28,827 bases of DNA. It comes from a virus. The notes under the pieces are model-generated. The model did no database searches. It was not told the DNA's origin and saw only the letters and a list, made by a program, of their open reading frames with translations. This document shows, piece after piece, positions 1 to 13,414 of this stretch. The stretch spans positions 64,001 through 92,827 of IMG/VR virus record IMGVR_UViG_3300044856_000229. One strand, given 5' to 3'. Each line of letters begins with the position of its first letter. The first letter of the stretch is position 1. Made by a program: the position numbers and the translations under genes.

Positions 1-80
1 TTGGAAAAGAACGTACTACCAACTTTTAATTCATAAATATAACTTCCTTTTTCCTTTTTTTCGCCCCAATTAATTTTCAT
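1..80 (-). CDS. hypothetical protein (partial, 3' end outside window)
   Basis: Minus-strand ORF open to the window edge. ATG at 80 with AAAGGAAA RBS about 9 nt upstream (alternative in-frame ATG at 89). Preceded by promoter at 113-141. Confidence 0.35.
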   Translation of the reverse strand, partial: MKINWGEKKEKGSYIYELKVGSTFFS

Positions 81-112
81 TTTTATCATTTCCTTTCTTT
101 TATTATGTATAT

Positions 113-141
113 ATAATATCATATTTTTTGTTGTTTGTCAA
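113..141 (-). promoter_or_regulatory. sigmaA-type promoter, leftward (TTGACA-17-TATTAT), with A/T-rich UP-like tract at 142-175
   Basis: Minus strand reads TTGACA (141..136), a 17-nt spacer, then TATTAT (118..113). Upstream tract CAATAGTTTTTTAAAATTTTT is paralogous to those at 3130 and 5670. Confidence 0.6.
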
Positions 142-157
142 TAGTTTTTTAAAATTT

Positions 158-640
158 TTACAAATTTTTGGTTTCGCTCACAAAGTATTTTACATGATAG
201 CCATTAAGTAATTCTTTTACTGCGATACTCTGCTTTTGTGTAGCACAATAGCAGTTAATTAAAATATACTTGTCAATGTCGATGTAATTACAAGGAATAT
301 CACAGTCTTTTAATCCATTGATTAATTTTTCCCAGTTCTCAGACTTATTAATTGTAGACTCTATTTTCCACAGGCGGTCTTTTCTTGCTTTTTCTTCTCC
401 CCATTTAACAATCCATACTCCCACAAGGTTAGCAAGAAAAGTTACAATAACTTTTTGCCACAATGGAAAATCTGCAACTGTATAAATAAGAACTACATTA
501 TAGTAACCATAGTAGCCCGCAGAAATAAGGCTCGCGATTGTTTTTCCAGATTTAATTGTTACAATAGATTTGATAGTTGAAAAGATAACATTTACGATTG
601 TTAATAATGAAAATAAAATTAATACATTCATGGGTTTCAC
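158..640 (-). CDS. hypothetical membrane protein (hydrophobic N-terminal half)
   Basis: 160-aa ORF. Own promoter at 662-690 and RBS GAGAAAGTGAG. N-terminal about 90 aa strongly hydrophobic. Confidence 0.7.
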   Translation of the reverse strand: MKPMNVLILFSLLTIVNVIFSTIKSIVTIKSGKTIASLISAGYYGYYNVVLIYTVADFPLWQKVIVTFLANLVGVWIVKWGEEKARKDRLWKIESTINKSENWEKLINGLKDCDIPCNYIDIDKYILINCYCATQKQSIAVKELLNGYHVKYFVSETKNL

Positions 641-661
641 TCACTTTCTCTTTTTTCTTTT

Positions 662-690
662 ATTATACACCTACTTATGGATTTTGTCAA
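662..690 (-). promoter_or_regulatory. sigmaA-type promoter, leftward (TTGACA-17-TATAAT)
   Basis: Minus strand reads TTGACA (690..685), a 17-nt spacer, then TATAAT (667..662). A perfect 22-bp palindrome GGACTATTTTATAAAATAGTCC lies immediately upstream at 691-712. Confidence 0.7.
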
Positions 691-712
691 GGACTATTTT
701 ATAAAATAGTCC
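691..712. repeat. perfect 22-bp palindrome GGACTATTTTATAAAATAGTCC overlapping stop codon of upstream gene
   Basis: The two halves are exact reverse complements. It sits between the stop of gene 699..989 and the -35 at 685-690. Possible terminator hairpin or operator. Confidence 0.6.
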
Positions 713-989
713 TAGTTGTGATTTTTAGCAGTTCACCTGTATTTTTATCATAATAAATAACTGCTTCTGTACCAATAGGACAAACATAATCGTCTATAGA
801 ATAAACCTTATCCCTCTGTTTGTTTTCAAATTCCATTGTGACAGAATCACTTTCTTCATGGTATATCTTTTTTGTGGCGGTCACTTCTGTATATCTTACA
901 TTGCTAGTATAATTTCCTGTAGCAACAATTACTATTATAATGATAATTGCCAAACCTATTCCGGCTAATACGTCACGCCATACTTTCAT
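699..989 (-). CDS. small membrane-anchored protein (N-terminal TM helix)
   Basis: ORF 699..1016. The ATG at 989 has strong RBS GTGAGGTGAtaaaaATG. The upstream ATG at 1016 has none. Run of hydrophobic residues after MKVWRDVLAG. Confidence 0.6.
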   Translation of the reverse strand: MKVWRDVLAGIGLAIIIIIVIVATGNYTSNVRYTEVTATKKIYHEESDSVTMEFENKQRDKVYSIDDYVCPIGTEAVIYYDKNTGELLKITTRTIL

Positions 990-1075
990 TTTTATCACCT
1001 CACATAAACATTTCAATTATTGCAACTATCCAGACTGCAAAGTTACTGAAAAGCAAAGTCCAAAAAATACACATT

Positions 1076-1204
1076 TTACATTTCCTCACTTTCCTTGAAG
1101 ATTTCTTCAATCAACTTTTTAGTTTCTTCTACACCAATGTATAAAGCTGATTTTTCGATTGCATCAAATAAAAGTGTTTTTACTTCCATTTCTTTTTCTG
1201 TCAT
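1076..1204 (-). CDS. small acidic protein, 42 aa (MTEKEMEVKTLLFDAIEKSALYIGVEETKKLIEEIFKESEEM)
   Basis: Unannotated short ORF directly downstream of promoter 1236-1264. RBS AGAGGAGAtaaaaaacATG. Followed by gene 699..989, so the two form an operon. Confidence 0.4.
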   Translation of the reverse strand: MTEKEMEVKTLLFDAIEKSALYIGVEETKKLIEEIFKESEEM

Positions 1205-1235
1205 GTTTTTTATCTCCTCTCTTGACTATGTACTT

Positions 1236-1264
1236 ATTATATCATGGGGGCTGAGGTTTGTCAA
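1236..1264 (-). promoter_or_regulatory. sigmaA-type promoter, leftward (TTGACA-17-TATAAT), -35 inside G5/C5 hairpin
   Basis: Minus strand reads TTGACA (1264..1259), spacer, then TATAAT (1241..1236). Plus-strand GGGGGctgaggtttgtcaaCCCCC is followed by a T-run. Confidence 0.65.
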
Positions 1265-1280
1265 CCCCCATTTTTAATTT

Positions 1281-1589
1281 TTAATGATTAAACCGCAGAT
1301 AATGAGTAAACCATTTTTTACCAAAATTTTCTTCTAACTGTTTTTCCTCTTCTGGATTCGTTTCCATGATTGAGATTTTCATAATTGTATCCCAGTCAAG
1401 AGTTGTAAACCAAGTCCCATCTTTCATACCTTTACTAAAACGGAACGTATCAAGAATAAAATCCATTGTTTCCTGTCGTTTAATTGTTTTCATACATTCT
1501 TCAAGAGAAATAATCTGGCTACCAAAAATTGGTTTAGTTTCACAACCTGTTACCTTCCATCCGCTAATCTTACTTTCAATTTTAATCAT
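1281..1589 (-). CDS. hypothetical protein
   Basis: 102-aa ORF. RBS AAAGAGAGGAAAAAAgATG (a cassette 5'UTR variant). Promoter at 1620-1648. Confidence 0.7.
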   Translation of the reverse strand: MIKIESKISGWKVTGCETKPIFGSQIISLEECMKTIKRQETMDFILDTFRFSKGMKDGTWFTTLDWDTIMKISIMETNPEEEKQLEENFGKKWFTHYLRFNH

Positions 1590-1619
1590 CTTTTTTCCTC
1601 TCTTTCATTTGATATATTT

Positions 1620-1648
1620 ATTATACTACAGGGGATTGAACTTGTCAA
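1620..1648 (-). promoter_or_regulatory. sigmaA-type promoter, leftward (TTGACA-17-TATAAT), -35 embedded in hairpin GGGGATTGAActtgTCAACCCC
   Basis: Minus strand reads TTGACA (1648..1643), spacer, then TATAAT (1625..1620). The hairpin at 1631-1652 is followed by a plus-strand T-run. Family B terminator-promoter element. Confidence 0.7.
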
Positions 1649-1656
1649 CCCCTATT

Positions 1657-1890
1657 TTATAAAATTCCTTCAATCTCGCAACATTTACGGAAAATTTTAA
1701 CACAATCATTCCAAGAGCCATCATCATTTGCATATTCTGCCAGAATATCATCATCCCATCCATCCTCAAGACCATAAGCAAACCATAAGTCCATTACTAC
1801 ATCTTCTCTGATATTTTCTTTAAGAAATGTATCCATCTTTTTGAGTAAATTCTTTCTAGTTTTAATCATCTCATTTCTTGATACTTCCAT
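1657..1890 (-). CDS. hypothetical acidic protein
   Basis: 77-aa ORF. RBS AAGGAAGGGGAAcaaataaATG. Tandem promoters at 1922-1950 and 2087-2115. Confidence 0.65.
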   Translation of the reverse strand: MEVSRNEMIKTRKNLLKKMDTFLKENIREDVVMDLWFAYGLEDGWDDDILAEYANDDGSWNDCVKIFRKCCEIEGIL

Positions 1891-1921
1891 TTATTTGTTC
1901 CCCTTCCTTATCTTTAAATAT

Positions 1922-1950
1922 AGTATACTATAGTCGAGCGGTTTTGTCAA
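1922..1950 (-). promoter_or_regulatory. sigmaA-type promoter, leftward (TTGACA-17-TATACT)
   Basis: Minus strand reads TTGACA (1950..1945), spacer, then TATACT (1927..1922). Flanks are paralogous to the promoter at 8445-8473 (TTGTCAATaTACAAAATAaCCAA). Confidence 0.65.
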
Positions 1951-2007
1951 TATACAAAATAACCAAAAGTAAAGTGTGATTTTGGGATTTTTTGTATAAG
2001 ATACCTA

Positions 2008-2037
2008 TTGACAAATAGTTATTTTATGTGTTATAAT
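2008..2037 (+). promoter_or_regulatory. rightward extended -10 promoter (TTGACA-18-TGtTATAAT) opposing the leftward genes
   Basis: Plus strand has TTGACA at 2008-2013, an 18-nt spacer, TG at -15/-14 and TATAAT at 2032-2037. The -35 sits inside CTATTgacAAATAG. Upstream TTTGTAtAA-N9 mirrors the GTGCA-N9 element of the other three rightward promoters. Confidence 0.55.
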
Positions 2038-2043
2038 TGAAGT

Positions 2044-2133
2044 TTGAGCCTCATGTGCGGGTGAAGCATTCGCCTGCGGCGCACTAATTTTATCACCTTT
2101 TGGAAGGTTTGTCAAGTAGTAAAATTGCACAAA
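2044..2133 (+). ncRNA. candidate short non-coding RNA (about 90-120 nt) from rightward promoter to bidirectional terminator
   Basis: No ORF (ATG TGC GGG TGA). GC-rich imperfect hairpin GUGCGGGUGAAGCAUUCGCCUGCGGCGCAC. Ends at terminator 2134-2165. Partly antisense to the leftward promoter 2087-2115 region. Confidence 0.3.
2087..2115 (-). promoter_or_regulatory. sigmaA-type promoter, leftward (TTGACA-17-TAAAAT), tandem with 1922-1950
   Basis: Minus strand reads TTGACA (2115..2110), spacer, then TAAAAT (2092..2087). No ORF between it and the next promoter. Confidence 0.5.
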
Positions 2134-2165
2134 AAACGCTGAATTAAAATCCAGCGTTTTGTATA
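2134..2165. terminator. bidirectional rho-independent terminator (AACGCTG-9nt-CAGCGTT flanked by A-run and T-run)
   Basis: 7-bp GC-containing stem with U-runs on both strands. Ends gene 2166..2540 (minus) and the rightward sRNA. TTGCACAAAA motif immediately upstream at 2124-2133. Confidence 0.7.
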
Positions 2166-2540
2166 TTATTTTCTCGGCATACTCAGTACAATTTTATATT
2201 TAGTACCATTCAGTTCAAAAAAGAACTCTCTCTCATTGTTAGTCACATCTAAATTTTCCGCCCCCATCTTTTCGACTGATTCTGTCAAAGCTGTGATGAT
2301 AGCTTGCTTTCCTTTGTTCTCTGGTTTTTTCCTTTTGGAAGTATCAAACTTGTAAACAGTTGTTTTTTTCTTGCGGTCTGCCTGTCGTGCCTTTTTAGAT
2401 GCTTTTTCCTGTTCTGGTGTTAATGTGAAAAGCTTTTCCCCCTTGTCTATTCTTTTATCATCTTCTAACATTTGCATTGCTTCTTCTCTGCTAATATCTA
2501 ACAATTTCATGTTACGTTCTATAATTTCATTGTCTGTCAT
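2166..2540 (-). CDS. hypothetical Lys-rich protein
   Basis: 124-aa ORF. RBS AAGAAAGGGtttaataATG. Co-transcribed with 2587..2958, since only a hairpin and no promoter lies between them. Confidence 0.7.
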   Translation of the reverse strand: MTDNEIIERNMKLLDISREEAMQMLEDDKRIDKGEKLFTLTPEQEKASKKARQADRKKKTTVYKFDTSKRKKPENKGKQAIITALTESVEKMGAENLDVTNNEREFFFELNGTKYKIVLSMPRK

Positions 2541-2565
2541 TATTAAACCCTTTCTTTAAATAGTA

Positions 2566-2580
2566 GGGGCTTTTCGCCCC
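2566..2580. terminator. intercistronic hairpin GGGGCttttcGCCCC (attenuator/partial terminator)
   Basis: 5-bp G/C stem with a T-rich plus-strand tail, sitting between the two genes of the operon. Confidence 0.4.
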
Positions 2581-2586
2581 CTTTAA

Positions 2587-2958
2587 TTATTTTGCAAAAA
2601 AGTATGCTTTGCGTTTTTCAACGATTCTATCAACTTTACCTTCACCGCAAAGGGCGGTTACAAGAGAAGTTACACGCTGATTTGAAAGTTCTTTCAAACC
2701 TTCAACTTCTTTCATCAATTCAGAAACGGTAAATCCACTGCCTGTATTTACAAGGTATTCAACAATCTTTTCTTTTAAGCTCTCATTTTCGAGCTGAGTT
2801 GCTGTAGGCTTACGATTTGCAGAAGATTTTTTGTTTACCTGTACAAGCATTTTGTCAAGTTTCTCGATAACTTCTGTATACTTTTCTGCATCAGTTTCTT
2901 TCATAACCTCGATTGCGGTTTCCAGTGCCATAGCGTTTGTCATTTTTTTGTCTGTCAT
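2587..2958 (-). CDS. hypothetical protein, possible winged-helix DNA-binding C-terminus
   Basis: The ORF-track start at 2967 is TTG. The ATG at 2958 has RBS AGGAattgataattATG. C-terminal segment FTVSELMKEV...SNQRVTSLVTALCGEGKVDRIVEKRKAYF resembles a wHTH. Confidence 0.6.
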   Translation of the reverse strand: MTDKKMTNAMALETAIEVMKETDAEKYTEVIEKLDKMLVQVNKKSSANRKPTATQLENESLKEKIVEYLVNTGSGFTVSELMKEVEGLKELSNQRVTSLVTALCGEGKVDRIVEKRKAYFFAK

Positions 2959-3011
2959 AATTATCAATTCCTTTCTTAATAAGAGATTTATTATTTGTTT
3001 TCTATGTTTTT

Positions 3012-3040
3012 ATTATAACACCTGTTGTCTTGTTTGTCAA
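3012..3040 (-). promoter_or_regulatory. sigmaA-type promoter, leftward (TTGACA-17-TATAAT)
   Basis: Minus strand reads TTGACA (3040..3035), spacer, then TATAAT (3017..3012). Context TAACACCTgTTGTCTTGTTTGTCAAGACCTTT is paralogous to the promoter at 9546-9574. Confidence 0.7.
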
Positions 3041-3107
3041 GACCTTTTTTATTTTTCTTTTGGGGGACTTCTCATTGTTTTTCACTTCCTTTCTTTATCT
3101 TGTAATA

Positions 3108-3136
3108 ATAATACCATATTTTTTACATTTTGTCAA
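3108..3136 (-). promoter_or_regulatory. sigmaA-type promoter, leftward (TTGACA-17-TATTAT) with UP-like A/T tract, tandem with 3012-3040
   Basis: Minus strand reads TTGACA (3136..3131), spacer, then TATTAT (3113..3108). Upstream TTTGTCAATGGTTTTTTTAAATTTTTTTCT is a family A element. Confidence 0.55.
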
Positions 3137-3158
3137 TGGTTTTTTTAAATTTTTTTCT

Positions 3159-3881
3159 TTATTTTTCCCACAGTCCAGTTCTCATCTTTTTGTGCTGTCT
3201 ATAACAATAATGACAGATTTCTTTTTCGATTAAAGTATCTTCAAGTCCAGTGTGTTTTTCTACAAAAGTATTATCTTTTGTGATGAATCTATAAAGGATT
3301 TCGGCTGTTACTCTCAGTTGTCCTCTAGTTGTGAGATAATTATTCTCTTCACAAAATCTTCTGTATGATGACATTTTGCATACTACATCACGTGCCATTT
3401 TCATAGTATCGCAGATTTCCAAACCATAAGGAAAGAAATATCTATATTTTGATTTAGTCAACCAACGCTGAGTAGTGTTTAATGTGCCATAGTCAAAACG
3501 CATGTTATGAGCAAAAACCTTTTTTACGTTGTAACGTTCACAACACTCTACAAGCTGTTTTCTGATATTGTAGAAAGATGTTAAAATTCTTTTACCGCTT
3601 TTGATATCTTCCCAGTACATCGGAATTTTCTCTGCATAATATGAGGATTTCATAAGCTCTTTTTCTTCAAGAAAAATGTCAGCGTTTACAAATGACCATG
3701 TTTCAAAAACCTCACCAGTACGTTTGTTGATAACAGCAAAACCGCAATCATAAACCCACATATTAGTTGGAAGCACCTGTTCTAATGATTTGTCTACTGG
3801 ACAAGTTTCTGTATCAATTACAATTGAGTAATCCATTCTTCTGTCAATTTTGTTTGTGTTTTTTCTGTTGATAAATTCCAT
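3159..3881 (-). CDS. DnaQ-like DEDDh 3'-5' exonuclease
   Basis: Exo I IVIDTETC, Exo II FAHNMRFDYGTL and Exo III HTGLEDTLIEKE motifs in the canonical order and spacing. RBS GAGAGAGAGGtaaacaaaaATG. Confidence 0.75.
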   Translation of the reverse strand: MEFINRKNTNKIDRRMDYSIVIDTETCPVDKSLEQVLPTNMWVYDCGFAVINKRTGEVFETWSFVNADIFLEEKELMKSSYYAEKIPMYWEDIKSGKRILTSFYNIRKQLVECCERYNVKKVFAHNMRFDYGTLNTTQRWLTKSKYRYFFPYGLEICDTMKMARDVVCKMSSYRRFCEENNYLTTRGQLRVTAEILYRFITKDNTFVEKHTGLEDTLIEKEICHYCYRQHKKMRTGLWEK

Positions 3882-3914
3882 TTTTGTTTACCTCTCTCTC
3901 ATTTCTATGTCTTT

Positions 3915-3943
3915 ATTATACCATCAGTGAAGAGGTTTGTCAA
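3915..3943 (-). promoter_or_regulatory. sigmaA-type promoter, leftward (TTGACA-17-TATAAT)
   Basis: Minus strand reads TTGACA (3943..3938), spacer, then TATAAT (3920..3915). Confidence 0.7.
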
Positions 3944-4009
3944 GAACTTTTTTAACTTTTTTATAAGTTTTTTATTTGCTTTCTTGTCTTTCTCTTCCTT
4001 ACAAGTATT

Positions 4010-4038
4010 ATAATACCACAAGTCATTGAGGATTGCAA
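4010..4038 (-). promoter_or_regulatory. candidate leftward extended -10 promoter (TTGCAA-17-TGgTATTAT), tandem upstream of 3915-3943
   Basis: Minus strand reads TTGCAAtcctcaatgacttgTGGTATTAT. Resembles the extended -10 promoter at 9920-9948. Confidence 0.35.
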
Positions 4039-4106
4039 GGATTATTTTGAAAAAAATTGCACAAAATGGGATAAATATTTGCGGAAAAATTTGTGCATTT
4101 TTCCTC

Positions 4107-4136
4107 TTGACAAAGTGTGGCGACCTGTGGTATAAT
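4107..4136 (+). promoter_or_regulatory. rightward extended -10 promoter (TTGACA-18-TGgTATAAT) with upstream GTGCA-N9 element
   Basis: TTGACA at 4107-4112, GGCGACCTGTGG spacer, TATAAT at 4131-4136. Core TTTTCCTCTTGACAAA...GGCGACCTGTGGTATAATT is nearly identical to the copy at 8532-8561. Confidence 0.6.
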
Positions 4137-4142
4137 TTTTCG

Positions 4143-4204
4143 GGCAGCAGTCGAGCCTAACTGTCTGTACGGTCATTAAAAAAAGAAAGCGTTTAAACGC
4201 TTTC
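4143..4204 (+). ncRNA. candidate short non-coding RNA (about 60 nt) ending in bidirectional terminator
   Basis: No ORF. Starts GGGCAGCAG, like the 8568 copy which starts GGGACAGCAGG. Contains AGCCUAACUGUCUG, identical to a 14-nt stretch at 8703-8716 inside leftward small gene 8603..8749. The terminator hairpin is shared with the 3' end of leftward small gene 4193..4315. Confidence 0.3.
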
Positions 4205-4210
4205 TTTTAC
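4177..4210. terminator. bidirectional terminator: perfect 20-bp palindrome GAAAGCGTTTAAACGCTTTC flanked by A7 and T4
   Basis: Exact palindrome at 4185-4204 with U-runs on both strands. Overlaps the stop codon of 4193..4315. Confidence 0.7.
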
Positions 4211-4315
4211 ATCTACCATTTTAATTCTGTGCGGTCTGTCTTTTGCCTCTGCATAGCTTGTGGTTTCCTTTACAATTTTTTTACCTTCCATAATCTGATA
4301 AACAACTTTTCTCAT
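4193..4315 (-). CDS. small protein, 40 aa (MRKVVYQIMEGKKIVKETTSYAEAKDRPHRIKMVDVKESV)
   Basis: Unannotated ORF. RBS AAGAGAGGtattaagaATG. Its stop lies inside the bidirectional terminator. Upstream is a degenerate hairpin element GGGTTAAGCCC and a TATAAT at 4344-4349. Confidence 0.4.
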   Translation of the reverse strand: MRKVVYQIMEGKKIVKETTSYAEAKDRPHRIKMVDVKESV

Positions 4316-4377
4316 TCTTAATACCTCTCTTTTCTATGATTTAATTATACTATAGGGTTAAGCCCTATCTTTATTTT

Positions 4378-4635
4378 TTAATCTTTTTCAATAACTCTAA
4401 AGTCCATGTTTAATGCAGATAAGACTTCTTCTGGATTAAGACTGTGCCCTTCACGAATAATGTTTAAATTTGTTCTGTCAATCAATCGAATCCAATCTTC
4501 TGACTTTTCAACAATAATACAAGGTTCATTAGATAAACAAGGACAAAAACCTTTACAATTAGCTTTTCCCTCACCGTGACGTCCTGCATAACAACCCTCG
4601 AGTTCCGCACATCTATAACATTTGTTTTCTACCAT
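4378..4635 (-). CDS. Cys-rich small protein (7 Cys in first 40 aa; probable metal-binding)
   Basis: 85-aa ORF. Cassette RBS AAAGAGAGGAAAgaaaaATG. Pattern CxxC..C...C..C.C..C. Confidence 0.7.
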   Translation of the reverse strand: MVENKCYRCAELEGCYAGRHGEGKANCKGFCPCLSNEPCIIVEKSEDWIRLIDRTNLNIIREGHSLNPEEVLSALNMDFRVIEKD

Positions 4636-4666
4636 TTTTCTTTCCTCTCTTTCATTTGATACATTA

Positions 4667-4695
4667 AGTATACATTACTTTTGGTTATTTGTCAA
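4667..4695 (-). promoter_or_regulatory. sigmaA-type promoter, leftward (TTGACA-17-TATACT) with conserved 5'UTR cassette
   Basis: Minus strand reads TTGACA (4695..4690), spacer, then TATACT (4672..4667). The 29-bp block CCTCTCTTTCATTTGATACATTAAGTATA at 4644-4672 is identical at 6101-6130 and 8241-8270. Confidence 0.7.
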
Positions 4696-8608: not shown

Positions 8609-8749
8609 CTCTATAATTGTATGCATCAATCGCATCAACTGTTCATTGGTAAACTCTCCCGACTCACAATCTTCACAAAACATAACAGTTAGTGGACTCT
8701 CAAAGCCTAACTGTCTGATTACATTATCCATCATTTCTTTTACTGTCAT
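8603..8749 (-). CDS. small protein, 48 aa (MTVKEMMDNVIRQLGFESPLTVMFCEDCESGEFTNEQLMRLMHTIIEY)
   Basis: Unannotated ORF. RBS AGGAGGtcatgacaATG. An alternative start 2 codons upstream is too close to the RBS. Promoter at 8781-8809. Confidence 0.45.
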   Translation of the reverse strand: MTVKEMMDNVIRQLGFESPLTVMFCEDCESGEFTNEQLMRLMHTIIEY

Positions 8750-8780: not shown

Positions 8781-8809
8781 AGTATACTACAATCAGATTG
8801 ATTTGTCAA
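8781..8809 (-). promoter_or_regulatory. sigmaA-type promoter, leftward (TTGACA-17-TATACT)
   Basis: Minus strand reads TTGACA (8809..8804), spacer, then TATACT (8786..8781). Confidence 0.65.
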
Positions 8810-9045: not shown

Positions 9046-9513
9046 TTACACATGATACTGTATTAACTCTTTAAGCACGTCCATCATAACCACAGCATCA
9101 ACACTTGCACCTTGCCACTCTTCTCTATTCCTTGCTTCATCATCGAATAGTATTCCACCACAAGGCACTGCCGCACGTTTATTCTGTCCATACTCTGTTA
9201 CAATAATCTCATTCCAATTAACACTAGGAAGATGCTTCTTTAACCATTTCCTTTTGGCTTCTTCTATTGCTTGCACATAGTCAAGTGTTGCGTCCTTACT
9301 TGCCCATGAGATAACACCTAACTTATAACCTCTTCTCTGTAGTGCATTAATACGCCTTGCAAATAGACTCATAGATACAAGCGGTCTTGCTATCTCATAA
9401 GGCACTATACTACCATGCACCAGATAGTCAAGCCAACCTTCTACACTGTAAAGGTCTGCAATAGTTCCATCTAAATCGAACCACAACCATTTATTATCTA
9501 ACATACTAATCAC
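9046..9513 (-). CDS. HAD-superfamily 5'(3')-deoxyribonucleotidase (NT5C-like), paralog 2
   Basis: FDLDGTIADL (HAD motif I) and WLKKHLP...IIVTEYGQNKRAAV...GILFDDE. About 45% identical to paralog 1 at 5139..5618. The ORF-track start at 9513 is GTG. The ATG at 9504 (MLDNKWLWFDLDGT) is likely the real start. Confidence 0.7.
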   Translation of the reverse strand: MISMLDNKWLWFDLDGTIADLYSVEGWLDYLVHGSIVPYEIARPLVSMSLFARRINALQRRGYKLGVISWASKDATLDYVQAIEEAKRKWLKKHLPSVNWNEIIVTEYGQNKRAAVPCGGILFDDEARNREEWQGASVDAVVMMDVLKELIQYHV

Positions 9514-9545: not shown

Positions 9546-9574
9546 ATTATAACACCTTTGTGCTTGCTTGTCAA
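9546..9574 (-). promoter_or_regulatory. sigmaA-type promoter, leftward (TTGACA-17-TATAAT)
   Basis: Minus strand reads TTGACA (9574..9569), spacer, then TATAAT (9551..9546). Paralogous to the promoter at 3012-3040. Confidence 0.7.
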
Positions 9575-9791: not shown

Positions 9792-9820
9792 AGTATAGCA
9801 TACAAGTAGCTACTTGTCAA
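9792..9820 (-). promoter_or_regulatory. sigmaA-type promoter, leftward (TTGACA-17-TATACT)
   Basis: Minus strand reads TTGACA (9820..9815), spacer, then TATACT (9797..9792). Confidence 0.65.
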
Positions 9821-9919: not shown

Positions 9920-9948
9920 ATTATACCACAGATGTGCGGTGATGTCAA
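9920..9948 (-). promoter_or_regulatory. leftward extended -10 promoter (TTGACA-17-TGgTATAAT), tandem upstream of 9792-9820
   Basis: Minus strand reads cATTGACAtcaccgcacatctgTGGTATAATag. Resembles the rightward promoters through CTGTGGTATAAT. Confidence 0.55.
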
Positions 9949-9957: not shown

Positions 9958-10056
9958 TTGCACAAAGATTGACTACTGATTTTGTGCAATGTGCTGAAAA
10001 TTATTTTTGTGCAAAGTGACGAAATTTGGGAAAAAAATTAAAATATTTTTGTGCAA
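9958..10056. promoter_or_regulatory. array of TTTTGTGCAA motifs (direct copies at 9980-9989, 10005-10014, 10047-10056; inverted copy at 9958-9967) upstream of rightward promoter
   Basis: Exact 10-mer repeats. The last copy is positioned GTGCA-N9-TTGACA, as at the three other rightward promoters. Candidate activator/repressor site or UP-element array. Confidence 0.45.
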
Positions 10057-10064: not shown

Positions 10065-10094
10065 TTGACAAATTGTTGTGTCTCGTGTTATAAT
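10065..10094 (+). promoter_or_regulatory. rightward extended -10 promoter (TTGACA-18-TGtTATAAT)
   Basis: TTGACA at 10065-10070 and TATAAT at 10089-10094, with TG at -15/-14. Confidence 0.55.
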
Positions 10095-10100
10095 GGAAAT

Positions 10101-10170
10101 TCGGGCCTGCGCTTGCGTCTACGGCCCGAGGATTTGACGAGAGCGTCATTACTTTTTATGTATTTTTCCC
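10101..10170 (+). ncRNA. candidate short non-coding RNA (GC-rich hairpin GGGCC-15nt-GGCCC, then GACGagaGCGTC + U-tract)
   Basis: No ORF. Structured 5' end followed by a U-rich tail. Lies in the 360-bp non-coding gap 9959-10320. Confidence 0.25.
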
Positions 10171-10320: not shown

Positions 10321-10629
10321 TTAATCAAGATTCAAATCTTCTTCTGCAGGGCTTGGATTAGTTGCCCCTTCAATTTGCTTTAAATCCTCAACGTCCTTAT
10401 CCAATTCATCAATATGATCTTTAACCCAATTAGTCAGCTTCAAATATCCAGCATCATTAATTTCAGTAGAGAATCCTCTGAAATCAGTTCGTGCAGGAAA
10501 TCCCGCAATAACATTACCATCATCATCTTGTTCTACAAGTAAACACCAACCAAAAGCATGTAAAAATAAATTAGCATACCACAGTAATCCGCTATCTTTA
10601 AATTCTTTCCAATCTTTAATTTCTATCAT
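10321..10629 (-). CDS. hypothetical acidic protein
   Basis: 102-aa ORF. Strong RBS AAAGGAGataactATG. Preceded by terminator 10648-10693 with no own consensus promoter. Confidence 0.7.
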   Translation of the reverse strand: MIEIKDWKEFKDSGLLWYANLFLHAFGWCLLVEQDDDGNVIAGFPARTDFRGFSTEINDAGYLKLTNWVKDHIDELDKDVEDLKQIEGATNPSPAEEDLNLD

Positions 10630-10647
10630 AGTTATCTCCTTTATAGG

Positions 10648-10693
10648 AAAAGGAGAAACGCATTTTGCATCTCTCCTTTTCGTTTTATTTTTT
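10648..10693. terminator. terminator hairpin AAAAGGAGA-15nt-TCTCCTTTT followed by T-run (plus strand); likely leaky for leftward transcription
   Basis: 9-bp stem with nested GCAttttGC in the loop, then CGTTTTATTTTTT. Confidence 0.5.
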
Positions 10694-10780
10694 ATATATA
10701 GTTAAAACATTTCCTTCGTTTCCGTTATCAGTAATTTCTTAATAAAATTAATACAGCGAGTGGAACAATAATTCCAACAA

Positions 10781-10996
10781 TCATTCTTTATTCTCCTTTA
10801 TTTCAAACCCCAATAATAATTTAAACATTTTTCTTTGTAACCAATTAAATCTTTTATTACAAGGTAAAATAAAAAACTCTTTTCCATCATCATCTACCAA
10901 TACAATTTTATATGGTGCGGGTTTAGGCTGCAATAAATTACAACTGTATGACGAATTCAGTGTCTCCTGCGGATTTACCTTTACTTCTTTTTGCAT
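10781..10996 (-). CDS. hypothetical protein (about 71 aa)
   Basis: The ORF-track start at 11002 is TTG. The ATG at 10996 is the first ATG. Overlaps the 3' end of candidate ORF 10938..11096 in another frame. Its stop overlaps ATGA with the 18-aa hydrophobic micro-ORF 10728..10784 (MIVGIIVPLAVLILLRNY, RBS GGAGAAtaaagaATG). Confidence 0.5.
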   Translation of the reverse strand: MQKEVKVNPQETLNSSYSCNLLQPKPAPYKIVLVDDDGKEFFILPCNKRFNWLQRKMFKLLLGFEIKENKE

Positions 10997-11096
10997 CCTC
11001 AATCTCTTTCTTCATCTGATAATCAAGTTTTGCCATGCGACTTCTCATAATCTGAAACTCTGTTCTTTTTGCTCTTTTACTCTTATTTCTTCCCAT
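10938..11096 (-). CDS. candidate Lys/Arg-rich small protein, 52 aa
   Basis: RBS AAGGAGaatagaaagaATG. A-rich frame in an AT-rich genome, and it overlaps 10781..10996, so it is uncertain. Confidence 0.3.
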   Translation of the reverse strand: MGRNKSKRAKRTEFQIMRSRMAKLDYQMKKEIEDAKRSKGKSAGDTEFVIQL

Positions 11097-11334
11097 TCTT
11101 TCTATTCTCCTTAATCTTTTTTAATTCATTTTCAATTGATTCTAAAAGTCTAATTGCGGATTCATCATCCAAAAATTCACTAACATTTATTGTATTTGGA
11201 ATTACAATAACATGTTTATCAGAAAACACTTCTGAAACATGTTTAAATACTCCATAAACTTCATCAATACTATTTTCACCAAGAGTATAAGTAATAATTA
11301 CATAATCTCTTTTTTCCTCTGTTTTAATTTTCAT
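11083..11334 (-). CDS. hypothetical protein
   Basis: 83-aa ORF. Start overlaps the stop of 11331..11630 (ATGA), so the two are translationally coupled. Confidence 0.65.
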   Translation of the reverse strand: MKIKTEEKRDYVIITYTLGENSIDEVYGVFKHVSEVFSDKHVIVIPNTINVSEFLDDESAIRLLESIENELKKIKENRKNGKK

Positions 11335-11630
11335 CTTATAATTACCGTCCCATGTTTTCCTTCTCTTCTTAGCCTCTCCAAAACTGGATGGCGGGAATTT
11401 TTTTCATTCATAAATACAATAGCAAAATCAAGTTCTTTAATATAATCATTAAATGAGCCAAAGAAATATCTTTTGCCGGAGCCATTATTTTCTGCCCATT
11501 TATCTCCCAAAGAATTGGGAGAACACACTATATTAAATAAATATGTTCCCTTTATTTCAATAAGCTCATTTAATCTTTTATCCAAAAGATCATAATCATC
11601 AAGTGTGCCTCCAATTATTCCTACATTCAT
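11331..11630 (-). CDS. small Rossmann-like protein, possible SLOG/DUF2493-like (Gly-rich N-terminus VGIIGGT)
   Basis: 99-aa ORF. ATGA overlap with the stop of the Thg1-like gene. Glycine-rich loop near the N-terminus. Family assignment is tentative. Confidence 0.6.
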   Translation of the reverse strand: MNVGIIGGTLDDYDLLDKRLNELIEIKGTYLFNIVCSPNSLGDKWAENNGSGKRYFFGSFNDYIKELDFAIVFMNEKNSRHPVLERLRREGKHGTVIIR

Positions 11631-12484
11631 GCGATTGACTCAATAAAAACTAACTTATCAATATAATCTCTATCTGCCCCTTTGAAAATAGGAATTTCAT
11701 AATCTATTTTCCATTTGCGGCGAACAATTATTCTTTCACCAATTTGCTCTCCAAGATAAACATTTGGCTCTTTAATTGTTTCTTTTTCTTCTGTCTTAAT
11801 GCACGCGGTTCCTCGTTTACATGGAATTGTAAAAGTATTCCAATTAATTCCATACTGAACCATTAGCATATCTTGAATATCATTACAAGTTTTATCTTTA
11901 AGTTTAGCATGCGAGAAATGAGCTTGTCCTACCATCTGAATACTATTCCGCATTGCATCAAGCTGCCGCCAATAAATAAGGTTTGTTACTTCTTCTTTTG
12001 GAATATTAAAACATCTTGCGTCAAACATTGCTCCTTTTTCTGCGGCATTTACATATCTTTCAATAAGTCTTTTATTTTCCTCTATAAGAGGATCATAAGT
12101 TGAATTATATTTAATTATATTCTCAGAAAAATATTTATTAAAAGCCACTGTTGCCATAGAAGCTGATATAGAAGCCATTTTCTGGACCTCATAATTAAAC
12201 CAAGCCTCTGAAGTTAACTTTTGGTAATCAGTTAAAATCAAAGTAATTTCATCTGACTGAGTATATCCAAAAATACAACCCTGAATATTTTCACAAAGAT
12301 GCTTCATTGTTCTTTGCATTGTATCCATTAACACAGGGTCAAATGGTTTTTGAAAACCTCGTGTAAAAGTATGAAAAGCTTTTCCATCAATCCTAATAGC
12401 TACTGGCATGCGGCGAAGTAATTGCGTTTTTGCGGGATTTTCATAAAAATCTTTCATTCTTGCGGCAAGTTCACTATTATCCAT
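11627..12484 (-). CDS. Thg1-like protein (tRNA-His guanylyltransferase family, 3'-5' nucleotidyltransferase)
   Basis: Motifs match Thg1 in order: VAIRIDGKAFHTF (Thg1 VVVRLDGRNFHRF), KPFD, YTQSDEITL (Thg1 YGQSDEYSF), QKMASISAS and YWRQLDA (Thg1 SWRQADC). RBS AAGGAAGaaaaATG. Confidence 0.8.
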   Translation of the reverse strand: MDNSELAARMKDFYENPAKTQLLRRMPVAIRIDGKAFHTFTRGFQKPFDPVLMDTMQRTMKHLCENIQGCIFGYTQSDEITLILTDYQKLTSEAWFNYEVQKMASISASMATVAFNKYFSENIIKYNSTYDPLIEENKRLIERYVNAAEKGAMFDARCFNIPKEEVTNLIYWRQLDAMRNSIQMVGQAHFSHAKLKDKTCNDIQDMLMVQYGINWNTFTIPCKRGTACIKTEEKETIKEPNVYLGEQIGERIIVRRKWKIDYEIPIFKGADRDYIDKLVFIESIA

Positions 12485-12518
12485 TTTTCTTCCTTTTTTT
12501 ATTTATTTTATATATATA

Positions 12519-12848
12519 TTATAATTTAATTTTTAAATTTTGTCCATTCTGATCTTTTATTGAGATTTCTGTGCGGTTTTCAGTAAGATTTGTTTCTTTT
12601 AAGAACCAATGCCATACATGAGGTTCTTCAATTGTGGTTCCAATATATTGGGTATTTTCTAACACTTTTTCGGGAATCGGCTGTCCTGTTCCAATAGGAT
12701 TCACAAAGAAACTTCTAATAGGAGCTGCAGTATCAGTTAAAGCCCAAAGATAAGTGCGGCCATTCATTTCTTTTACATCAAGAAATTTAATAAGCGGTAA
12801 TTCAAGTACTCCAATATCATTTAAACAATATTTAAGAATTCTTTTCAT
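12519..12848 (-). CDS. hypothetical protein (109 aa)
   Basis: RBS AGAGGAtaaacttaATG. Overlaps the 3' end of the AbrB-like gene by 17 nt. Confidence 0.65.
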   Translation of the reverse strand: MKRILKYCLNDIGVLELPLIKFLDVKEMNGRTYLWALTDTAAPIRSFFVNPIGTGQPIPEKVLENTQYIGTTIEEPHVWHWFLKETNLTENRTEISIKDQNGQNLKIKL

Positions 12849-13098
12849 TAAGTTTATCCTCTAATTTTTCTGGAATTTCTGCGCCAATTTCTTCAAGAAT
12901 TGATTTTGCGGCTAAGAATTTTGGGTCTACTCCATCGGCAATAGATAAAGCAATATACATTTTACCATCTAAATCAAATGTAAAAAATTCAAGCTCTTCA
13001 TTATCTCGCATAAACATTCTATCTCTTAATCCTTTTGGAAGAGTAATTCTTCCCAATGAATCTAATCTTCTTCTTGCGTTTTCTGGTCTTAATATCAT
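12832..13098 (-). CDS. AbrB/SpoVT/MazE-fold DNA-binding protein
   Basis: N-terminal LDSLGRITLPKGLRDRMFM matches the swapped-hairpin AbrB-N motif (VDELGRVVIPIELRRTLGI). 88 aa. RBS AAGGAGataaaataATG. Confidence 0.7.
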   Translation of the reverse strand: MILRPENARRRLDSLGRITLPKGLRDRMFMRDNEELEFFTFDLDGKMYIALSIADGVDPKFLAAKSILEEIGAEIPEKLEDKLNEKNS

Positions 13099-13110
13099 TA
13101 TTTTATCTCC

Positions 13111-13347
13111 TTAATTAAATTTAATATTATTATCATCATCGCTACCATCCCAATTACTACCCATTAAAATATCTAATATCCATGTAGCAATATTAGAGAT
13201 GAAAAATGCGGGTGCTGTTATTAAAAATATTATGAGTACAATTAACATTTCTACCCAGCCTATTTGATACAGCGAATCCGCAGATTGTATAGCCAAAGAT
13301 AAAAACATAAGTAACCATAAAATATAAATAACTATTATTAAAGTCAT
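13111..13347 (-). CDS. small membrane protein (2 TM)
   Basis: 78-aa ORF. RBS AAAGAGGAtacaaatATG. First gene after promoter 13386-13414. Confidence 0.65.
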   Translation of the reverse strand: MTLIIVIYILWLLMFLSLAIQSADSLYQIGWVEMLIVLIIFLITAPAFFISNIATWILDILMGSNWDGSDDDNNIKFN

Positions 13348-13385
13348 ATTTGTATCCTCTTTATTTTTACCTTTAATTTACTAAT

Positions 13386-13414
13386 ATAATATCAAAAAAT
13401 TTTAATGTTGTCAA
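13386..13414 (-). promoter_or_regulatory. sigmaA-type promoter, leftward (TTGACA-17-TATTAT), divergent partner of 13420-13448
   Basis: Minus strand reads TTGACA (13414..13409). The two -35 boxes are back-to-back: TTGTCAAagaatTTGACT. Confidence 0.6.

What the first reader, a model, noticed from the sequence alone, without database searches (positions are those of the whole stretch)
1..13414. 13-kb leftward module of small genes, each behind a near-consensus sigmaA promoter (host-takeover-like early region)
At least 25 leftward promoters in this arm match TTGACA-17-TATAAT or TATACT almost perfectly. Most sit 25-35 nt upstream of an AGGAGG-type RBS and a gene of 40-160 aa. I could not assign a function to most of these products. 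Several are membrane, Cys-rich or acidic proteins. This density of perfect host-RNAP promoters on single small genes is what defines the early host-takeover modules of SPO1-like and T5-like phages, for example the 13-kb terminal redundancy of SPO1. If that parallel holds, this arm is probably the first DNA expressed after infection.
Basis: partly seen in the sequence, partly recalled or inferred. Interest (0 to 1): 0.6.

Follow-up and report, generated by a model that had tools for sequence, protein, structure and literature searches.

The report
Promoter-per-gene early arm of a phage
The left 13 kb of this window is the probable early-expressed arm of an uncultivated large phage of a low-GC Gram-positive host, in which almost every small gene carries its own near-perfect host-type promoter; it is a clear example of a known kind of phage region, found here in a lineage whose transcription has not been described.

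Summary
Window 1-13414 has 25 leftward sites matching TTGACA-17±1-TATAAT at 11/12 or better, 12 of them perfect. Shuffles give 0.48 and 0.00. The right arm is at chance. Of the 25, 21-22 lie 25-41 nt upstream of a ribosome-binding site and ATG of a small gene, mostly of unknown function.

The SPO1/T5 comparison is an analogy only. The packaging genes place the phage with SPbeta-type large siphoviruses (Enterococcus phages H1/VRE9/EF1, Geobacillus E3, phAss-1). A terminal repeat could not be tested. The arm also runs about 4 kb beyond window position 1.

The architecture is family-wide. In 48 related metagenomic loci the same arm averages 17 such promoters per 10 kb. Enterococcus phage H1 has it too.

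The promoter-leader units are dispersed 50-100 nt repeats, and about nine carry a hairpin over the -35. Two gene gains or losses against a ~92-96% identical relative have their crossover inside these units. This matches the promoter/stem-loop cassettes (PeSLs) of T4-like phages.

The arm also holds promoter-driven non-coding units. One belongs to a strictly oriented GC-hairpin family with covariation support that is absent from Rfam.

Early timing and host-takeover function are inferred, not shown.

The parts
13386..13414 (-). Promoter, TTGACA-17-TATTAT (11/12). Rightmost leftward promoter. It sits back-to-back with the plus-strand promoter at 13420.
12518..12546 (-). Promoter, TGGACA-17-TATAAT (11/12), ahead of the Thg1-like operon.
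9920..9948 (-). Perfect promoter with a TTTGTGCAA motif upstream. No RBS follows. Candidate sense-strand small RNA of about 85 nt (about 9828-9913).
9792..9820 (-). Promoter (TATACT, 11/12) for gene 9636-9755.
9546..9574 (-). Perfect promoter for gene 9046-9504.
8781..8809 (-). Promoter (TATACT) for gene 8603-8749.
8445..8473 (-). Promoter (TATACT) for gene 8279-8413.
8265..8293 (-). Promoter (TATACT) for gene 7958-8236.
7940..7968 (-). Perfect promoter for gene 7767-7913. The -35 lies in a hairpin of -16.9 kcal/mol.
7566..7594 (-). Perfect promoter for gene 7237-7533. The -35 lies in a hairpin of -15.6 kcal/mol.
7204..7232 (-). Perfect promoter for gene 6825-7172, with a hairpin of -8.5 kcal/mol. 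Its promoter and leader are fused to a different gene in the relative L085.
6780..6808 (-). Promoter (TATATT, 11/12), in tandem with the one at 6744. Hairpin of -14.4 kcal/mol.
6716..6744 (-). Perfect promoter for gene 6496-6681.
6420..6448 (-). Promoter, TAGACA-17-TATACT (10/12), with TTTGTGCAA upstream, for gene 6150-6386.
6125..6153 (-). Promoter (TATACT) for gene 5698-6093.
5648..5676 (-). Perfect promoter for gene 5139-5615.
4667..4695 (-). Promoter (TATACT) for gene 4378-4635.
3915..3943 (-). Perfect promoter for gene 3159-3881.
3108..3136 (-). Promoter (TATTAT) followed only by an 8-codon ORF. It looks like a remnant cassette.
3012..3040 (-). Perfect promoter for the operon 2587-2958 and 2166-2540. 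Hairpin of -6.5 kcal/mol.
2087..2115 (-). Promoter (TAAAAT, 11/12) with TTTGTGCAA upstream and no RBS. It faces the plus-strand promoter at 2008.
1922..1950 (-). Promoter (TATACT) for gene 1657-1890.
1620..1648 (-). Perfect promoter for gene 1281-1589. Hairpin of -13.2 kcal/mol.
1236..1264 (-). Perfect promoter for gene 1076-1204. Hairpin of -19.4 kcal/mol. It is a chimera of two promoters of the relative L085.
662..690 (-). Perfect promoter for gene 158-631, with a hairpin just upstream (690-713).
113..141 (-). Promoter (TATTAT) for a gene that starts at 80 and runs off the window.
10065..10166 (+). Antisense-strand unit. Perfect promoter with 18-nt spacer (10065-10094), then the GC hairpin of family R1 (10095-10150), then a terminator ending at about 10160.
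   Evidence: (34.4 bits, E 1e-10)
8532..8612 (+). Antisense-strand unit. Perfect 18-nt-spacer promoter, then a GC hairpin with a T-run. Predicted RNA of about 40 nt.
4107..4210 (+). Antisense-strand unit. Perfect 18-nt-spacer promoter, then a hairpin, then a terminator shared in both directions with gene 4193-4315. Folding z-score -4.15.
2008..2168 (+). Antisense-strand unit. Perfect 18-nt-spacer promoter facing the promoter at 2115. Its RNA ends at a terminator shared in both directions (2132-2165).
9958..10056 (.). Cluster of four exact TTTGTGCAA copies inside a non-coding stretch of about 360 nt. The other four copies are at 2125, 4057, 6457 and 8515.
   Evidence: 8 copies against 0.75 expected
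13420..13448 (+). The only host-type promoter of the right arm, TTGACT-17-TATAAT. It diverges from the promoter at 13414.
13111..13347 (-). 78-aa hydrophobic (probably membrane) protein.
   Evidence: no PHROG family
12832..13098 (-). 88-aa AbrB/MazE-like (swapped-hairpin) DNA-binding protein. All matches are below the curated cut-offs.
12519..12848 (-). 109-aa DUF7352 protein.
   Evidence: 2.1e-13
11627..12484 (-). 285-aa Thg1-like (tRNA-His guanylyltransferase family) protein.
   Evidence: 2.6e-31; 1.5e-84
10321..11630 (-). Run of small genes without promoters of their own: 11331-11630, 11083-11334, 10938-11096 and 10321-10629 (phrog_16397, function unknown).
9046..9504 (-). 152-aa NT5C/HAD-type deoxyribonucleotidase-like protein. 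Paralog of 5139-5615.
   Evidence: D11, D13
5139..5615 (-). 158-aa NT5C/HAD-type deoxyribonucleotidase-like protein.
3159..3881 (-). 240-aa protein of phrog_20187. It has 38-39% orthologs in the same arm of Enterococcus phages H1, EF1, EF5 and VRE9. The H1 copy is annotated exodeoxyribonuclease.
5698..8749 (-). Eleven single-promoter small genes with no family of known function: 8603-8749, 8279-8413, 7958-8236, 7767-7913, 7604-7750, 7237-7533, 6825-7172, 6496-6681, 6150-6386, 5698-6093, and also 9636-9755 outside this span. Several have hydrophobic stretches and one is Cys-rich.
158..5093 (-). Further small genes of unknown function: 4746-5093 (start uncertain), 4378-4635 (Cys-rich), 4193-4315, 2587-2958, 2166-2540, 1657-1890, 1281-1589, 1076-1204, 699-989 and 158-631 (the last two have hydrophobic stretches).
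13472..14581 (+). First gene of the right arm. 369-aa protein of PHROG 5767, labelled 'sigma factor', with a sigma region-4-like fold and a C-terminal zinc ribbon. Its identity is unresolved.

Best explanation
This is most of the immediate-early, fast-evolving arm of a large double-stranded-DNA siphovirus with SPbeta-type packaging genes, infecting a low-GC Gram-positive host.

Cassette structure. Nearly every small gene is an autonomous expression cassette. Each has an A-rich, UP-like tract; a TTGACAA -35; a 17-nt spacer; a TG-extended TATAAT or TATACT -10; a leader of about 30 nt; and a strong ribosome-binding site.

How it most likely works. These signals are the consensus for the host housekeeping-sigma RNA polymerase, so the genes can be transcribed at full strength as soon as the DNA is in the cell, with no phage factor and regardless of gene order. 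This step is inferred.

What the products do. They include two dNMP-nucleotidase-like enzymes, an exonuclease-like protein, a Thg1-like enzyme and an AbrB-like DNA binder. About 25 others are small proteins of unknown function, some hydrophobic, Cys-rich or acidic. They presumably redirect or disarm the host. This is also inferred.

Gene shuffling. The promoter-leader sequences are dispersed 50-100 nt repeats, and about one third have a hairpin built on the -35. Recombination between them adds, deletes and swaps single genes together with their expression signals. This is shown by two chimeric junctions. It is the logic described for T4-type PeSL cassettes.

Non-coding units. Interspersed units (a promoter, a GC hairpin and a terminator, marked by a TTTGTGCAA motif) probably punctuate or regulate transcription of the arm. 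Their role is unknown.

Right arm. The structural and packaging arm has a single host-type promoter at its head, so it must be expressed by read-through or by another, unidentified signal.
For: Promoter enrichment:
- 25 sites at 11/12 or better and 12 perfect on the gene strand, against 0.48 and 0.00 in shuffles. The right arm is at chance.
- 21-22 of the 25 lie 25-41 nt upstream of an RBS and ATG.
- The consensus has an A-rich upstream tract, TTGACAA and TG-n-TATAAT.

Conservation of the architecture:
- In 48 IMG/VR loci at 65-98% identity in the adjacent 369-aa protein, the 10-kb arm averages 17.2 sites (10.5 perfect). The downstream 11 kb averages 0.6.
- Cultured Enterococcus phage H1 has 18 such promoters in the equivalent arm. 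It shares the 240-aa gene there.

Cassettes as repeats:
- Dispersed repeat families of 45-99 nt and three leader subfamilies.
- Hairpins of -6.5 to -19 kcal/mol over the -35 in about 9 promoters, with different stem sequences.

Recombination inside cassettes:
- The window promoter at 1264 is a chimera of two promoters that flank an extra gene in the relative.
- The promoter and leader at 7232 are fused at the RBS/ATG to gene 6150-6386 in the relative.
- The overall pattern against near relatives is mosaic.

Gene content:
- NT5C-like proteins (two copies), a Thg1-like protein and an AbrB-like protein.
- 19 of 30 products have no PHROG family and 6 more match only families of unknown function.

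Literature definitions:
- PeSL cassettes (PMC2839356, PMC4122927).
- SPO1 host-takeover module (PMC6873191).
Against: - There are no expression data. Early timing rests on promoter form only.
- The host is unknown, so a match to 'the host consensus' assumes a typical Firmicute housekeeping sigma.
- No product has a demonstrated or homology-supported host shut-off function.
- The right arm also begins with a host-type promoter, so the two arms are not cleanly separated by promoter type.
- Only about one third of the promoters have the hairpin.
- In the sense direction the hairpins lack a good U-tract. The apparent plus-strand terminator bias in this window is not family-wide.
- Indel junctions at gene borders are also what selection for intact genes would leave. 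Only two junctions were resolved to the nucleotide.
Confidence: 0.75

Rival explanations
1. The arm is a member of the SPO1-type (Herelleviridae) or T5-type host-takeover or pre-early module. On this view it is homologous to them and lies in a terminal redundancy that enters the cell first.
For: It resembles them in size (about 13-18 kb), in having many small genes, and in strong host-type promoters and ribosome-binding sites (SPO1 description in PMC6873191). A dNMP-nucleotidase-like gene recalls the T5 pre-early dmp gene; this point is from memory and is not a test.
Against: - The best large-terminase matches are Enterococcus H1/VRE9/EF1, Geobacillus E3, phAss-1 and SPbeta-type (YonF) phages. 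No SPO1-like or T5-like phage appeared among the listed matches.
- A YonG_N protein is present.
- Megablast of the arm against 50,697 phage records finds nothing.
- No product falls in a PHROG family annotated for SPO1 or T5 takeover proteins.
- In the 150-kb relative the arm is internal to the contig.
Confidence: 0.05
2. The cassettes are chiefly selfish or neutral mobile units (a promoter plus a gene of unknown function, moron-like). On this view they persist because the repeats let them spread by recombination, and most products are dispensable accessory or anti-defence genes rather than a coordinated host-takeover programme.
For: - Gene content differs between relatives that are ~92-96% identical over the shared blocks.
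- Crossovers lie inside the cassettes.
- There is a remnant cassette with an 8-codon ORF at 3108-3136.
- Most products have no known family.
Against: - The architecture and its density are maintained across hundreds of relatives down to 65% identity.
- A few genes are conserved in the arm as far as the Enterococcus phages.
- Both points argue for selection on the arm as a whole. This view is compatible with the best explanation rather than exclusive of it.
Confidence: 0.15
3. The array of consensus promoters acts mainly as a sink that draws host RNA polymerase holoenzyme away from host promoters. On this view the small ORFs are secondary.
For: There are 25 to 29 near-perfect promoters in 13 kb, more than are needed to express these genes. 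They include tandem pairs (6808 and 6744; 3136 and 3040) and promoters with no gene behind them.
Against: - 21-22 promoters are precisely spaced ahead of a strong RBS and an intact ORF.
- ORFs are conserved at 60-96% protein identity in relatives.
- Titration has not been shown for any phage as far as I know.
Confidence: 0.05

Closest known systems
PeSL (promoter-early stem-loop) cassettes in the hyperplastic regions of T4-like myoviruses (Arbiol et al. 2010, PMC2839356; Comeau et al. 2014, PMC4122927)
   Same: - Consensus housekeeping-sigma early promoter with an AT-rich upstream tract.
- A stem-loop within or next to the promoter.
- A ribosome-binding site and ATG at the 3' end.
- The unit is repeated about every gene, ahead of small genes of unknown function.
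- Indel and replacement junctions between close relatives fall inside the repeat.
   Different: - The phage lineage (a siphovirus with SPbeta-type packaging genes) and host phylum are unrelated, so this is convergent or analogous, not homologous.
- The hairpin is built on the -35 hexamer itself and is present in only about a third of the units.
- Mini-circles were not tested.
- All units lie in one contiguous arm of about 17 kb, not in several regions.
[quoted passage not shown] 1998; PMC6873191)
   Same: - A contiguous block of more than 10 kb of mostly small genes.
- Unusually strong host-type promoters and ribosome-binding sites.
- Predicted to be expressed first.
   Different: - No detectable homology of products or of virion genes.
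- About 25 promoters for about 35 genes here.
- Location in a terminal redundancy is not shown.
- No product has a known shut-off activity.
Equivalent leftward arm of Enterococcus phages H1, VRE9_1-4 and EF1/EF5 (134-142 kb) and of many uncultivated IMG/VR contigs of 100-200 kb
   Same: - True relatives: 49% large-terminase identity, the same gene order, and a shared 240-aa gene in the arm.
- H1 has 18 promoters at 11/12 or better, hairpins over the -35, and antisense promoter/GC-hairpin units.
   Different: - There is no nucleotide similarity in the arm, and most small genes are not shared.
- The R1 hairpin model did not score in H1.
- I found no paper in the held library that describes the transcription of this group.

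Membership tests
PeSL-type early promoter/stem-loop cassettes (T4-like phages) | Repeated motif containing a consensus housekeeping-sigma early promoter with an AT-rich upstream tract. | tested here: met
   25 sites at 11/12 or better against 0.48 expected. The consensus shows an A-rich tract from -60 to -38.
PeSL-type early promoter/stem-loop cassettes (T4-like phages) | A stable stem-loop within or next to the promoter. | tested here: inconclusive
   About 9 of 26 promoters have a hairpin of -6.5 to -19 kcal/mol that includes the -35. The rest have none.
PeSL-type early promoter/stem-loop cassettes (T4-like phages) | The motif ends in the ribosome-binding site and ATG of a small gene of unknown function, in a variable region. 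| tested here: met
   21-22 of 25 sites qualify. Most products have no family. The region is mosaic against relatives.
PeSL-type early promoter/stem-loop cassettes (T4-like phages) | Indel and replacement junctions between close relatives lie inside the motif. | tested here: met
   Two junctions were resolved: a chimeric promoter at 1236-1264 and a leader fusion at 7172-7204.
PeSL-type early promoter/stem-loop cassettes (T4-like phages) | Excised mini-circles; promoter and terminator activity shown by reporter assays. | not testable with these tools
   Needs inverse PCR and reporter assays.
PeSL-type early promoter/stem-loop cassettes (T4-like phages) | Belongs to the T4-like myovirus lineage. 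| tested here: not met
   The large terminase, portal and YonG_N protein point to SPbeta-type siphoviruses.
SPO1 host-takeover module | Lies in the long terminal redundancy of a Herelleviridae genome. | tested here: not met
   The lineage is not Herelleviridae-like. The terminal-repeat position itself is not testable, but the arm is internal in the 150-kb relative contig.
SPO1 host-takeover module | Products homologous to gp37-gp60. | tested here: not met
   No PHROG family with such an annotation among 30 products scanned. tblastn of two products hits only this lineage. Profile-to-profile comparison with SPO1 proteins was not done.
SPO1 host-takeover module | Small genes behind strong host-type promoters and ribosome-binding sites. 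| tested here: met
SPO1 host-takeover module | Expressed early; products shut off host DNA, RNA and protein synthesis or cell division. | not testable with these tools
   Needs a time-course transcriptome and toxicity assays.
T5 pre-early (first-step-transfer) region | Terminal-repeat segment that is injected first and encodes A1, A2 and Dmp. | tested here: not met
   No A1/A2-like family was found. The two NT5C-like proteins match phrog_2643 only at 1e-10 to 1e-11. The lineage is unrelated. Injection order is not testable.
Phage sigma factor (for the 369-aa protein at 13472-14581) | Sigma-70-family regions 2 and 4 recognisable by sequence or fold. | tested here: inconclusive

The most novel reading that the evidence does not exclude
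The arm contains a previously undescribed class of regulatory hub. It has three parts: a GC-only 8-9 bp hairpin with a conserved 9-nt loop (about AGGGCCGUG) and conserved flanks; a TTTGTGCAA-N9-TTGACA motif; and, in about 40% of copies, a consensus promoter that transcribes the hairpin antisense to the early genes as a small RNA of about 70 nt.

What supports it as a real element:
- The hairpin has covariation support: score 0.41 against 0.16 in shuffles, with none of 500 shuffles reaching the observed value.
- All 106 copies found in 42 related loci have the same orientation and lie in the early arm.
- It matches no Rfam family.

If it is a functional RNA, it could be a timing device that switches the early arm off (antisense control or promoter interference), a protein-binding antitermination site, or an anti-defence decoy. 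In any of these cases it would be a new phage regulatory RNA family that is widespread in uncultivated phages.
Probability: 0.3. Interest if true: 0.7.

Novelty: new member of a known kind. Interest (0 to 1): 0.45.

Why it matters
Abundance of the lineage. The adjacent 369-aa protein has more than 6,500 homologues in public data, all unnamed, and 476 IMG/VR loci encode a relative. Nothing is published on how these phages are transcribed.

Practical uses. The arm offers a ready-made map of about 25 probable early transcription starts. It also offers a catalogue of about 30 small candidate host-directed or anti-defence proteins that could be screened for toxicity, as was done for SPO1. Cultured Enterococcus faecium relatives (H1, VRE9) could be used to test all of this, and they are of interest for therapy.

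Evolution. Promoter/stem-loop cassettes that shuffle single genes had been described in T4-like phages of Gram-negative hosts. Finding the same solution in an unrelated siphovirus lineage suggests it is a general way for large virulent phages to keep a fast-evolving early gene pool.

Tried and rejected
- Nucleotide search of the arm against 50,697 phage records: no match.
- Rfam on the window and on a relative's arm: nothing near any family threshold. No tRNA genes.
- CRISPR-repeat mimic (RNA anti-CRISPR) idea for the GC hairpin. A scan of 185,579 genomes with the hairpin core returned only single, scattered hits in high-GC bacteria and no arrays.
- Type I toxin-antitoxin idea for the plus-strand units. 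The RNAs lie between genes and overlap only shared terminators, not small hydrophobic ORFs.
- 'Antisense terminators protect the arm'. In this window the strict terminator-like sites are 6 on the plus strand and 0 on the minus strand. Across 40 relatives the means are 2.4 and 2.8, so I dropped it as a family feature.
- The other three plus-strand units (4107, 8532, 2008) do not score with the R1 hairpin model, so they are not members of that family.
- Phage sigma factor at the head of the right arm as the early-to-late switch: unresolved.
- A 12-nt identity between the 4107 RNA and gene 8603-8749 is within chance expectation (my estimate is about 0.8 such matches) and was not pursued.
- Attempts to recover the window's own contig gave only fragments of 1.1 and 6.8 kb.
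- Literature searches found no description of transcription in this phage group.

Full report
**1. The observation**

A consensus scan of window 1-14500 lists twelve perfect TTGACA-17-TATAAT sites on the minus strand and thirteen more at 11/12, mostly with TATACT or TATTAT. My own scan reproduces them with flanks.

In 100 dinucleotide-preserving shuffles of the left arm, the minus strand gave on average 0.00 perfect sites and 0.48 sites at 11/12 or better. The observed numbers are 12 and 25. The right arm (13415-28827) has no perfect site and 2+2 at 11/12 against 0.7+0.5 expected. One of those is the divergent partner of the leftmost-arm promoter.

Of the 25 sites, 21-22 have the -10 end 25-41 nt upstream of an ATG preceded by an AGAGAGG/AAGGAGG-type ribosome-binding site. 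The aligned sites show an A-rich tract from about -60 to -38, TTGACAA, a 17-nt spacer and TG-n-TATAAT. The description is correct and far beyond chance.

Three corrections:
- Position 1 is only the window edge. A gene starting at 80 runs off it.
- Density is uneven. 23 sites lie in 1-9950 and two in 9951-13414, where the genes form longer operons.
- Four more perfect promoters, all with 18-nt spacers, lie on the plus strand.

**2. What phage this is**

The arm has no nucleotide match among 50,697 phage records. The right arm matches only 440 bp of the large terminase gene of ~134-140-kb Enterococcus faecium phages, at 72%.

At the protein level the best large-terminase matches (15776-17506) are:
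- a faecal 'Bacteriophage sp.' at 60%;
- Enterococcus phages VRE9, H1, EF1 and EF5 at 49%;
- Geobacillus virus E3 at 50%;
- phAss-1 at 44%;
- the YonF-type terminase of Brevibacillus phage Sundance at 36%.

The neighbouring 402-aa protein carries Pfam YonG_N. PHROGs identifies a portal, an HNH homing endonuclease and virion proteins.

This is therefore an SPbeta-type large siphovirus lineage, not an SPO1-like or T5-like phage. The one paper on the group in the held library (phAss-1, PMC10607447) does not mention promoters or early genes. Other searches found nothing either.

**3. The architecture is a family trait**

Enterococcus phage H1 has the same layout. A leftward arm of about 13 kb holds small hypothetical genes, including an 'exodeoxyribonuclease' and a HAD hydrolase. 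It diverges from a rightward block that leads to the terminase. Eighteen gene-strand promoters at 11/12 or better lie in that arm.

The 369-aa protein at the head of the right arm has 476 relatives in IMG/VR. In 48 loci with full flanks (65-98% identity, GC 32-41%):
- the 10 kb upstream averages 17.2 gene-strand sites at 11/12 or better, of which 10.5 are perfect;
- the antisense strand of that arm averages 2.5 sites;
- the 11 kb downstream averages 0.6 and 0.25.

In a 150-kb contig whose shared blocks are ~92-96% identical to the window, the promoter-dense arm continues about 4 kb beyond window position 1 before gene orientation changes. The true module is therefore about 17-18 kb.

**4. Gene content**

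Recognisable products:
- a Thg1-like protein (11627-12484; Pfam 2.6e-31);
- two paralogous NT5C/HAD deoxyribonucleotidase-like proteins (5139-5615 and 9046-9504);
- an AbrB/MazE-like protein (12832-13098; below curated cut-offs);
- a DUF7352 protein (12519-12848);
- a 240-aa protein of phrog_20187 (3159-3881). It has 38-39% orthologs in the same arm of the Enterococcus phages.

Of 30 products scanned against PHROGs, 19 have no family and 6 more match only families of unknown function. Nothing links any product to SPO1 gp37-60 or to the T5 pre-early proteins.

**5. The cassettes are repeats that shuffle genes**

The promoter-leader segments form dispersed repeat families of 45-99 nt, with three recurring leader types.

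About nine promoters have a stable hairpin of -6.5 to -19 kcal/mol. The first bases of the -35 hexamer (TTGA or TTGAC) form part of its 5' arm and the spacer forms its 3' arm. The stems differ in sequence from promoter to promoter.

Against near relatives the arm is a mosaic of collinear blocks interrupted by gains, losses and replacements of single genes. Two junctions resolve to the nucleotide:
- The window promoter at 1236-1264 is identical to one promoter of the relative up to TTGACAAA, and to a second promoter from there on. The relative has an extra gene between the two.
- In the relative, the promoter and leader of window gene 6825-7172 are joined at the RBS/ATG to window gene 6150-6386. 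Two genes are missing there.

This is the behaviour described for the PeSL cassettes of T4-like phages: a consensus early promoter, an AT-rich upstream tract, a stem-loop in or beside the promoter, and a ribosome-binding site, flanking genes of unknown function and mediating modular shuffling (PMC2839356, PMC4122927).

The resemblance is one of mechanism, not of ancestry. Junctions at gene borders are also what selection for intact genes would leave, so a larger survey is needed.

**6. Non-coding units (not in the finding)**

The four plus-strand promoters (2008, 4107, 8532, 10065) share three features:
- a conserved upstream TTTGTGCAA-type motif (TTTGTATAA at the 2008 promoter);
- a TGTGGTATAAT-type -10;
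- a GC-rich hairpin and a terminator instead of a ribosome-binding site.

Two minus-strand promoters (9948 and 2115) also lack a gene. The promoters at 2008 and 2115 face each other across about 45 nt. TTTGTGCAA occurs eight times exactly, against 0.75 expected. All copies lie between 2125 and 10056, and four are clustered at 9958-10056.

Across relatives, the antisense promoters are followed by a conserved element: GGAAAUU, a GC-only stem, a loop of about AGGGCCGUG, the return stem, then GCCGAAAA. Evidence for the stem:
- it is 82% paired, against 65% in shuffles;
- 51 cells have changes on both sides, against 22;
- the covariation score is 0.41 against 0.16, with none of 500 shuffles reaching it;
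- all slid controls score 0.14 or below.

A covariance model finds one clear copy in the window (10095-10150, 34 bits). It finds 106 copies in 42 related loci. Every one is on the strand antisense to the early genes and inside the early arm.

Only about 40% of copies have a consensus promoter reading into them. The others sit about 60 nt upstream of a sense-strand promoter of the TTTGTGCAA class, usually just after the terminator of the preceding gene. The element has no good U-tract on either strand, matches nothing in Rfam, and showed no sign of being a CRISPR-repeat mimic. Its function is open.

**7. The right arm and the switch**

The right arm has one host-type promoter, at 13420-13448. 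It sits back-to-back with the leftward promoter at 13414 and is followed by tightly packed genes with strong terminators only at 23111-23140 and 28215-28245.

**8. Verdict**

- The functional reading, an immediately expressed arm driven by host RNA polymerase and packed with small genes of unknown function, is the best-supported explanation. It remains inferential on timing and on what the proteins do.
- The kinship implied with SPO1 and T5 is not supported.
- The closest mechanistic precedent is the T4 PeSL system.
- The closest relatives are the large Enterococcus siphoviruses and a very large set of uncultivated phages.
- The region is a new member of a known kind. A side observation, the oriented GC-hairpin/antisense-promoter units, could be new.

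Noticed in passing
window 10095-10150 (+); 106 copies in 42 related loci (for example L035 4299-4354, L065 2986-3041): A conserved GC-only hairpin element with a conserved loop of about AGGGCCGUG and conserved flanks. It has covariation support, is always antisense to the early genes, is always inside the early arm, and is not in Rfam. About 40% of copies have a consensus promoter reading into them.
   Followed up: yes
window 2125, 4057, 6457, 8515, 9958, 9981, 10006, 10048: Eight exact copies of TTTGTGCAA (0.75 expected). They usually lie 9-10 nt upstream of the -35 of promoters that drive non-coding units. Four are clustered in a non-coding stretch of about 360 nt (9950-10320). This may be a regulator binding site, and the motif is conserved in distant relatives.
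   Followed up: partly
window 2008-2115: Two strong promoters face each other, with their -10 elements about 50 nt apart, across a GC-rich hairpin. The two transcripts would be complementary at their 5' ends. The same arrangement recurs in relatives (for example L085 5944/6047).
   Followed up: partly
window 9828-9948 (-) and 8962-8999: The perfect promoter at 9948 is followed by a transcript of about 85 nt with no ribosome-binding site, ending in a weak terminator. It is conserved in the near relative, and part of it is repeated at 8962-8999 (repeat D14).
   Followed up: no
window 11627-12484 (-): A Thg1-like (tRNA-His guanylyltransferase / 3'-5' polymerase family) gene in the early arm. This is unusual cargo that could repair tRNA 5' ends damaged by a host defence.
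   Followed up: no
window 5139-5615 and 9046-9504 (-): Two diverged paralogous NT5C/HAD deoxyribonucleotidase-like genes, each behind its own perfect promoter.
   Followed up: partly
window 3054-3136 (-): A promoter with a good ribosome-binding site, followed only by an 8-codon ORF (MRSPPKEK) and then the next promoter. It looks like the stump of a deleted cassette. The same stump is present in the relative (L085 12956).
   Followed up: no
window 13405-13426: The -35 hexamers of the divergent promoters at 13414 (-) and 13420 (+) form a near-perfect palindrome, TGTCAAAGAATTTGACT. This is a possible single operator controlling both arms.
   Followed up: no
window 13472-14581 (+): A 369-aa protein with more than 6,500 unnamed homologues in public data. 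It has a sigma region-4-like helical domain and a C-terminal CxxC...CxxC zinc ribbon, and it always sits at the head of the packaging arm. Gene callers elsewhere start it 17 codons later.
   Followed up: partly
window 17592-17948 (+): An HNH homing-endonuclease gene lies between the large terminase and the portal. In Enterococcus phages EF1 and EF5 the terminase gene itself is split by such an endonuclease.
   Followed up: no
window 23111-23140 and 28215-28245: Two very strong GC-rich terminators of 13 bp. The first works in both directions. They follow gene 21974-23080 (phrog_4088, function unknown; possibly the major capsid gene by its position) and the virion structural protein gene 27199-28200. 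They are the only clear punctuation in the right arm.
   Followed up: no
window 1-13414, plus strand: In this window the hairpins over the -35 are preceded by A-tracts on the sense strand. They therefore read as canonical terminators for antisense (rightward) transcription: 6 strict sites on the plus strand and 0 on the minus. Across 40 relatives the two strands are equal.
   Followed up: yes
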